64,000 bases of DNA from Eledone cirrhosa (Eukaryota): NCBI GenBank assembly GCA_964016885.1, contig OZ024740.1:374046001-374110000 (forward strand). Direction: 5' to 3'. The notes beneath the pieces are model-generated. The model did no database searches, was not told the DNA's origin, and worked only from the letters and a program-made list of their open reading frames with translations. Made by a program: the position numbers and the translations under genes. This document shows positions 396-1,027 of this stretch, one piece after another (positions within the stretch are counted from its first letter, which is position 1; the number at the start of each line of letters is the position of its first letter).

Positions 396-1027
396 ATAAA
401 CTGAAAAAATGCAACGAAATTTCATTTCTCACTCTTAGTACGGCTTAATTCGGTATGTTATTTTACAAACACACCGAGCATTATGATAAATGTCCGGTGA
501 ATCCATACGTACATATATATATGTGTGCATGTATGTATATATATATATATATATATATATACATACTACTTTACGTCTGTATACATATATGTATGTACGT
601 ATACATACTTATATTTAAGTAACAGCCGTACTAAGAGTGATAAATGACATTTCGTTTCATTTTTTCCGTTTATCGTTTTCGGTGCACCCGGCCGATTAAC
701 TCACTCGATATGCAAATTAGGCTGCTCAGCCGTTAATATGCATAAGTAAATATATACTTTCAGACATTCAATCATCTGGCAGGAAGGTATGCGTTGCTGA
801 CGATAGCTAATAAGCTTGAAACTAGTACAGCGTTCCTATGTCAGTGTTGAACAAATGAGCAACGATGGTTGCTAGACACTGTACGGCTGAATTCGGGATG
901 TTTGTTTACAAACACACCGAGCATTATAATAAATGTTCGGTGAATCCATATATGTGTGCATGTATGTATATATATATAAATACTACTGTACGTCTGTATA
1001 CATATATGTATGTACCTATGCATACTT
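396..1027 (+). mobile_element. Family A: non-autonomous Penelope-like/retrozyme element, partial tandem with an inverted left end
   Basis: Direct repeats at 438-610 and 881-1027. 396-445 is the reverse complement of 624-673. It contains an HHR and has (TA)n on both sides. Confidence 0.75.
791..833 (+). ncRNA. Minimal type I hammerhead ribozyme
   Basis: gcgttg-CTGACGA-T AGCT aata AGCT T-GAAA-CTAG-TA-cagcgt. The core is intact, stem I has 6 bp including G-U pairs, stem III is palindromic and the cleavage triplet is GUA. Confidence 0.8.

What the first reader, a model, noticed from the sequence alone, without database searches (positions are those of the whole stretch)
396..1027. Family A explains the extension: a ~430-nt retrozyme-like monomer with a microhomology-mediated inversion
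Seen: the unit repeats with a period of about 420-440 nt and holds one intact HHR (791-833). The inverted left end (396-445) copies 624-673, the sequence just past the short terminus (CATACTT at 604-610 and 1021-1027). The switch falls at an 8-nt match, GTACGGCT (438-445 and 881-888, complement at 624-631). Inference: the extension is the start of the next monomer, which implies a tandem or circular RNA template as in non-LTR retrozymes, with RT template switching.
Basis: partly seen in the sequence, partly recalled or inferred. Interest (0 to 1): 0.8.

Follow-up and report, generated by a model that had tools for sequence, protein, structure and literature searches.

The report
Penelope-mobilised mini-element with hammerhead ribozyme
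This is one insertion of a very abundant, non-coding jumping element that carries a self-cutting RNA motif; its partial tandem, inverted end and one-sided extension are the ordinary insertion signature of Penelope-like retrotransposons, so it is a new example of a known kind.

Summary
All coordinates check out. The insertion sits in a (TA)n tract and has two parts. The left part is an inverted 50-nt piece (396-445 = reverse complement of 624-673, 46/50). The right part is 1.4 head-to-tail copies of a 417-443-nt non-coding monomer with one type I hammerhead (791-833). Reads show a very abundant, circularly permuted family: 9,027 contigs in one run, homologous pieces in two other organisms, and 10 other strand-switch joints among 15 shown. 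Partial tandem, head-to-head inverted truncated copy, one-sided 'tail' and AT-rich target are the published signature of endonuclease-bearing Penelope-like elements (PLEs). The 'extension' is the PLE tail. The tandem template is supported. A circle is possible but not required: a PLE protein uses uncleaved tandem RNA in vitro and starts at two sites that define the tail (PMC11167929). The 8-nt microhomology is real (0.07% of random junctions) and coincides with a predicted RNA helix. It is not a family rule: most other junctions share 0-1 nt. Verdict: a new non-autonomous PLE/retrozyme family. Autonomous partner, expression and cleavage untested.

The parts
347..395 (.). Left target tract, (TA)24 plus one C
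396..445 (-). Inverted, 5'-truncated piece made only of tail sequence (copy of 624-673); its outer end (396 = 673) is the putative long terminus
   Evidence: 46/50 identity; match stops at 396
438..445 (.). 8-nt overlap at the head-to-head inversion junction
438..610 (+). 5'-truncated upstream monomer (copy of 881-1027), the partial tandem or pLTR-like repeat
   Evidence: 137 identities, 10 mismatches, 26 gaps
611..1027 (+). One complete monomer, 417 nt, 36.9% GC; no ORF outside TA-repeat read-throughs exceeds 30 codons
   Evidence: continuous read depth over 611-946
611..673 (+). Tail: about 62-63 nt between the short terminus and the long terminus
   Evidence: PLE tail by comparison
623..631 (+). 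5' arm of a predicted 9-bp RNA helix with 881-889 that closes the HHR-bearing domain; source of the junction microhomology
   Evidence: pair probabilities 0.99-1.0
791..833 (+). Type I hammerhead motif: core 797-803 and 818-821, stem II with basal U.U mismatch, 2-bp stem III in a 6-nt palindrome (821-826), predicted cut 827/828
   Evidence: variation in reads; palindrome dimer -6.8 kcal/mol
881..889 (+). 3' arm of that helix; point at which the upstream monomer is truncated
1021..1027 (+). Short terminus (CATACTT), boundary uncertain by 1-4 nt against the TA tract
1028..1116 (.). Right target tract, about 44 TA units; no target duplication can be defined

Best explanation
This is one genomic copy of a very high-copy, non-autonomous element (about 420-nt monomer, type I hammerhead, no protein), mobilised in trans by an endonuclease-bearing Penelope-like retrotransposon. 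Shown: the layout, the AT target, the family's abundance and its circular permutation. Inferred steps: (1) A more-than-unit RNA, most simply an uncleaved tandem transcript, was bound by a PLE RT-GIY-YIG protein. (2) The protein nicked both strands of a (TA)n tract. (3) One nick primed cDNA from the short terminus (1027) through the HHR site and 147 nt into the upstream monomer. The other primed cDNA from the long terminus (673) down to 624. (4) The two cDNA 3' ends are complementary over 8 nt because 624-631 and 881-888 are two arms of one RNA helix. They annealed and were filled in, giving the head-to-head inversion with the tail on one side. The copies have since diverged by 7-8% from each other.
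For: Layout and coordinates match the PLE scheme: partial tandem, inverted 5'-truncated copy, tail at one end, microsatellite target, head-to-head junction with overlap. Two RT start sites define the tail, both strands are nicked and extended, and uncleaved RNA is the main template in vitro; 9,027 contigs (X1) and 46,141 of 12,467,656 reads (X21) lie on the monomer. 10 of the 15 joints shown are strand switches, 6 with one side at 611-626 joined to varied points (698-863). One joint (696/831) is in both X1 and X21. None of the 20 loose-end rows shown for the deep runs X1 and X21 leads into an ORF-like body (by eye). In the same window, 6 of 6 family-C copies examined have one fixed long end, one fixed short end, variable inversion points and TA flanks. 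That favours two defined start sites in this genome. Non-LTR retrozymes are reported as non-autonomous PLE derivatives in vertebrates.
Against: No autonomous partner was found: no PLE RT or GIY-YIG hit in 145 of 217 window ORFs scanned, and no genome is held. The tail (about 62 nt) is longer than the 30-40 nt usually quoted. That 673 is a recurrent family terminus was not shown (20 of 514 loose-end rows and 15 of 40 joints visible; 948-1027 skipped as repeat). Many X21 joints come from 1-5 read starts in a restriction-based library and may be ligation chimeras.
Confidence: 0.78

Rival explanations
1. Same PLE machinery, but the template was a ribozyme-processed, ligated circular monomer (about 420 nt, joined at 827/828) copied for 1.4 rounds. 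It is a variant of the best explanation at the template step, not exclusive of it.
For: The direct part (590 nt) is longer than one monomer and crosses the predicted cut site, so a cleaved linear monomer cannot be the template. The family is circularly permuted. The monomer folds far better than shuffles (z -5.8). Among the 40 variant rows shown, none is in the catalytic core; changes fall at N7 (801), loop 2 (811) and stem I, where 791A gives a Watson-Crick pair and 794G with 830T keeps a wobble. Coral, mussel and axolotl retrozymes accumulate as circles, the axolotl HHR with the same basal U.U in stem II.
Against: A linear uncleaved tandem transcript gives the same DNA. In the anole PLE, HHR cleavage is dispensable and no RNA reads end at the cut site. 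Only 1 of 9 Xenopus dimers cleaved in vitro. The monomer is predicted not to adopt the active fold. 63 variant rows were not shown.
Confidence: 0.3
2. The inversion arose by fold-back self-priming or template switching. A single cDNA stopped at 881', its 3' end annealed to its own copy of 624-631, and it was extended to 673.
For: It gives the identical sequence (worked out by hand) and uses the longest internal inverted match. Self-priming was proposed for PLE head-to-head junctions.
Against: It does not explain a fixed outer end. Family C has fixed long ends whatever the inversion point, and mostly 0-1 shared letters. Two RT start sites are shown in vitro.
Confidence: 0.2
3. The locus is a stump or local deletion product of an autonomous PLE, not a member of an amplified non-autonomous family.
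For: Truncated PLE ends are common. Earlier scan notes reached this reading for other genomes (unchecked). Two single contigs of X8 leave the monomer into unrelated sequence at 713 and 819.
Against: Contig pieces from three organisms bridge the whole body in overlapping steps (618-739, 649-780, 700-813, 754-910, 797-947, 708-928), and depth is continuous over 611-946, so the 270-nt body itself is amplified.
Confidence: 0.1
4. Assembly artefact or post-insertion rearrangement next to long TA tracts.
For: Both flanks are long microsatellites, and the exact 624/888 junction was not among the joints shown (only 611-1027 was laid).
Against: The duplicated parts differ by 7-8%. Where reads tell, each copy carries some majority letters: the inverted copy at 641 and 648, the upstream copy at 889. 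That fits independent ageing, not a collapsed or chimeric assembly.
Confidence: 0.03

Closest known systems
Insertion architecture of EN+ Penelope-like elements (Craig et al. 2021 PMC8557442; Arkhipova et al. 2013 PMC3846280; Frangieh et al. 2024 PMC11167929)
   Same: Partial tandem, head-to-head inverted 5'-truncated copy with an overlap at the junction, one-sided tail, AT/(TA)n target, type I HHR upstream of the termini.
   Different: No ORF; unit about 420 nt instead of several kb; tail about 62 nt; the inverted piece consists of tail only.
Metazoan non-LTR retrozymes (Cervera and de la Pena 2020 PMC7229834; Li et al. 2026 bioRxiv 10.64898/2026.07.22.740005)
   Same: Non-coding 150-450-nt monomer, GC below 50%, one type I HHR per unit with short palindromic stem III; basal U.U in stem II as in an axolotl family; PLE mobilisation proposed.
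   Different: This locus has 1.4 units and one HHR, so it fails the two-HHR 'active' criterion. It shows PLE tail and inversion junctions, which the parts of those papers that I read do not describe for retrozymes. Circles and cleavage untested.
Non-autonomous Chlamys PLEs such as MRC1 (passage in PMC8557442)
   Same: Non-autonomous PLE derivatives with pLTRs and multicopy head-to-tail insertions.
   Different: That clade lacks canonical HHRs and occurs in green algae; similarity to an autonomous family was shown there and could not be tested here.

Membership tests
EN+ PLE-type insertion | Partial tandem forming a pLTR | tested here: met
   438-610 repeats 881-1027
EN+ PLE-type insertion | Inverted 5'-truncated copy, head-to-head | tested here: met
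   396-445 versus 624-673; 10 strand-switch joints among 15 shown in reads
EN+ PLE-type insertion | Tail on one end only | tested here: met
   Left end runs 62-63 nt past the short terminus, right end stops at it; longer than the usual 30-40 nt
EN+ PLE-type insertion | Long terminus recurrent across copies | tested here: inconclusive
   Not among the 20 of 514 loose-end rows shown; read ends at 649-652, 715-718 and 893 fall on AATT sites and look like library cuts
EN+ PLE-type insertion | AT-rich or microsatellite target | tested here: met
   (TA)n on both sides
Autonomous PLE | ORF with RT and GIY-YIG endonuclease | tested here: not met
   No ORF in the element; no PLE domain in 145 of 217 window ORFs
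Non-autonomous PLE derivative | Terminal homology to an autonomous PLE of the same genome | not testable with these tools
   No genome held
Non-LTR retrozyme | Short non-coding monomer, GC below 50%, one type I HHR | tested here: met
   417 nt, 36.9% GC, HHR motif; no Rfam hammerhead match
Non-LTR retrozyme | Two or more consecutive HHR-bearing units | tested here: inconclusive
   Not met at this locus (1.4 units, one HHR). For the family, the head-to-tail junction is common (7,768 reads), but no full dimer could be seen in short reads or contigs
Non-LTR retrozyme | Expressed as linear and circular monomeric RNA | not testable with these tools
   No RNA run was listed
Non-LTR retrozyme | Self-cleavage as monomer or dimer | not testable with these tools
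   Needs an in vitro assay; folding predicts an inactive monomer and a 6-bp stem III dimer

The most novel reading that the evidence does not exclude
The family is a true circle-forming retrozyme, amplified to tens of thousands of copies or more in an invertebrate genome and inserted by PLE machinery from the RNA circle. Its tail and inversion junctions would then be direct, junction-level evidence that PLE proteins mobilise retrozyme circles. A native RNA helix closing the ribozyme domain would steer where the two cDNAs stop and join.
Probability: 0.25. Interest if true: 0.55.

Novelty: new member of a known kind. Interest (0 to 1): 0.3.

Why it matters
The architecture is ordinary for Penelope-like elements. 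The modest value is that a retrozyme-sized monomer carries the PLE insertion signature (tail, head-to-head inversion, TA target). This bears on which enzyme moves animal retrozymes: proposed in 2020, and supported by phylogeny in vertebrates only, with other organisms named as not investigated. A very high-copy family with many natural junctions would let the circle-versus-tandem and twin-priming-versus-fold-back questions be tested by counting alone.

Tried and rejected
No whole genome is held, so copies could not be counted in an assembly. Rfam gave no hammerhead hit; the low-score miRNA hits are hairpins and TA repeats. The exact HHR pattern found 0 loci in metagenome contigs and 0 in viral contigs. 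A relaxed pattern found 1 metagenome contig sharing only the 31-nt core, not a family member. No RNA holder listed; this says nothing on expression. Apparent termini at 649-652, 715-718 and 893 in run X21 were rejected: they coincide with AATT sites, including one made by the majority letter at 648, and are absent from the contig rows shown. A 40-nt tail ending at 651 is therefore not claimed. The repeat finder on the whole window was swamped by microsatellites. The bacterial promoter scan is irrelevant to this host. Automated junction calls for two family-C copies were wrong because of nearby mismatches and were re-read from the match strings. One copy (48956) served as reference and was left out of the count. 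Literature searches listed no paper that describes this family by title or abstract start. Repeat libraries such as Repbase and Dfam and paper supplements were not seen, so it may be catalogued there.

Full report
Observation. Every coordinate given is correct. Bases 396-445 are the reverse complement of 624-673 at 46 of 50; CATACTT stands at 604-610 and 1021-1027; GTACGGCT at 438-445 and 881-888 with its complement at 624-631. Bases 438-610 align with 881-1027 with 137 identities, 10 mismatches and 26 gap letters in TA-rich runs, so the period is 417-443 nt. The insertion lies between 49 nt and 89 nt of (TA)n, so no target duplication can be defined. The monomer 611-1027 is 36.9% GC and has no ORF beyond 30 codons apart from TA read-throughs. 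Only one family-A locus is in the window. The microsatellite-rich sequence suggests an invertebrate animal, possibly a cephalopod; that is recalled and comes from no call.

The ribozyme. My motif-and-pairing scan found 5 type I hammerhead motifs in the window, one at 791-833 with predicted cut 827/828. It has a full core, a 4-bp stem II with a basal U.U mismatch and a 2-bp stem III inside a 6-nt palindrome. That is the usual animal form that needs a second copy to cleave well (PMC4209133); an axolotl retrozyme has the same U.U (PMC7229834). In the folded monomer stem II forms, but stems I and III do not (probabilities about 0.02 and 0), and the palindrome can dimerise over 6 bp. Rfam did not recognise it. 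In reads, none of the 40 variant rows shown touches the catalytic core, and changes fall at N7, loop 2 and stem I; 63 rows were not shown. So it is a plausible hammerhead under selection, with activity untested.

The family. I laid 611-1027 on 4 of the 23 runs listed. Run X1, which may be the window's own source, gave 9,027 contigs with summed depth of 1-2 million against about 4-18 for 7 of the 8 contigs listed. Run X21, same species label, gave 46,141 of 12,467,656 reads. The tool warns that these depths are no copy number; my rough inference is tens of thousands of copies or more. Two other organisms gave 15 and 10 contigs. Before position 613, 7,768 reads and 31 contigs continue with the monomer's own 3' end. 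Contig pieces bridge 673/674, 827/828 and 880/881. Two 'goes back' joints (883 to 611 and 910 to 611) keep the end of the terminus motif between them. The family is therefore circularly permuted, which supports a more-than-unit template, and the short body is itself amplified. Limits: 948-1027 was skipped as repeat, no full dimer could be seen, and only 15 of 40 joints and 20 of 514 loose ends were shown.

The inversion. Ten of the 15 joints shown are strand switches. Six have one side at 611-626, joined to 698-863, the same design as this locus. One (696/831) appears in two runs. Several X21 joints rest on 1-5 read starts and could be library chimeras. Shared letters at these ten joints are 0 in seven and 2, 3 and 4 in three. 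The 8-nt overlap here is beyond chance (10 of 14,850 junctions) and is not accidental sequence: 623-631 and 881-889 form a predicted helix (probability 0.99-1.0) that closes the ribozyme domain. As a control, family C in the same window has 7 loci. All 6 examined have the same long end, the same short end about 81 nt inside it, TA flanks and variable inversion points. Overlaps read are 1, 0 (with an imperfect 6 of 7 beside it), 1, 1 and 6; the sixth copy was the reference. Microhomology is thus used when available and is not required. Tailed inversions are common in this genome.

Mechanism. PLE insertions are described as partial tandems with an inverted 5'-truncated copy and a 30-40-bp tail at one end, often in (TA)n (PMC8557442), mostly head-to-head, in one case with a 15-bp overlap at the junction (PMC3846280). 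A purified anole PLE protein nicks and extends both strands of AT-rich DNA and starts reverse transcription at two internal sites, the tail being the sequence between them. HHR mutants insert normally, and unprocessed tandem RNA is the main substrate (PMC11167929). Applied here (inference): one cDNA ran from 1027 through the uncut or re-ligated 827/828 site to 881 of the upstream unit, a second from 673 to 624, and their complementary 3' ends annealed. Fold-back of one cDNA gives the same sequence but does not explain fixed outer ends. A cleaved linear monomer cannot be the template because the direct part is 590 nt and crosses the cut site. A circle and an uncleaved tandem cannot be told apart from DNA; I put the circle at about 0.3.

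Known versus new. The circle model for PLE tandems dates from 2014, PLE mobilisation of retrozymes was proposed in 2020, and a 2026 preprint derives vertebrate retrozymes from PLE terminal repeats. The element works like a non-autonomous PLE and meets the structural tests. Membership in the retrozymes proper is open because arrays, circles and cleavage were not shown. No autonomous partner was found: the only RT and endonuclease hits among 145 of 217 ORFs belong to a broken LINE. An octopus repeat annotation reports recently active Penelope families and does not use the word ribozyme in its main text (PMC13282606); whether this is the same animal group is not shown. What I saw of the papers: the preprint, parts 1-3 of 5; PMC11167929 and PMC4209133, parts 1-2 of 4; PMC7229834, passages and Discussion; PMC8557442, PMC3846280 and PMC13282606, passages only. 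No supplements were seen; they or repeat databases may already hold this family.

Verdict. It is a new member of a known kind, interest 0.3.

Noticed in passing
window 1612-2155 and 20166-20391: Family B: perfect 219-nt inverted arms (1709-1927, 1937-2155), each with a type I hammerhead (2050-2104 +, 1814-1760 -), a 97-nt one-sided extension and TA flanks; a second, uninverted copy is about 90% alike.
   Followed up: partly
window 14306-14550, 18901-19103, 20395-20613, 22872-23079, 28763-28824, 48956-49194, 50134-50340: Family C: 7 loci of short tailed inversions in (TA)n with fixed ends. By eye they carry the 3' half of a hammerhead with a palindromic stem III loop. In most copies both arms are truncated at nearly the same point, giving near-perfect hairpins.
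   Followed up: partly
window 22492-22832 and 26442-26507: Family D: another type I hammerhead family, once as an inverted pair (22733 +, 22591 -) and once single with a long unexplained upstream stretch after a TA tract.
   Followed up: no
window 10742-11036, 22013-22294, 23130-23293, 28509-28603, 7040-7311/8207-8476: Further head-to-head inverted insertions beside TA tracts, so about a dozen or more such structures in 64 kb.
   Followed up: no
window 14165-14205: A compact hammerhead-like core with a G-C-closed stem II just beside a family-C locus.
   Followed up: no
window 34207-37638: Broken LINE with endonuclease (PF03372) and reverse transcriptase (PF00078) pieces in several frames.
   Followed up: no
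L001 753-783: An unrelated metagenome contig has a hammerhead core 30 of 31 identical to 797-827, a 78-nt terminal repeat (unit about 1,075 nt) and short telomere-like CCCTAA repeats downstream; possibly a telomeric-type PLE or retrozyme of another eukaryote.
   Followed up: no
window 623-624, 762-838, 856-885 (reads): Run X21 shows a distinct subfamily with linked changes, including the canonical U at N7 and, by eye, a G.U-preserving change in the 623-631/881-889 helix.
   Followed up: no
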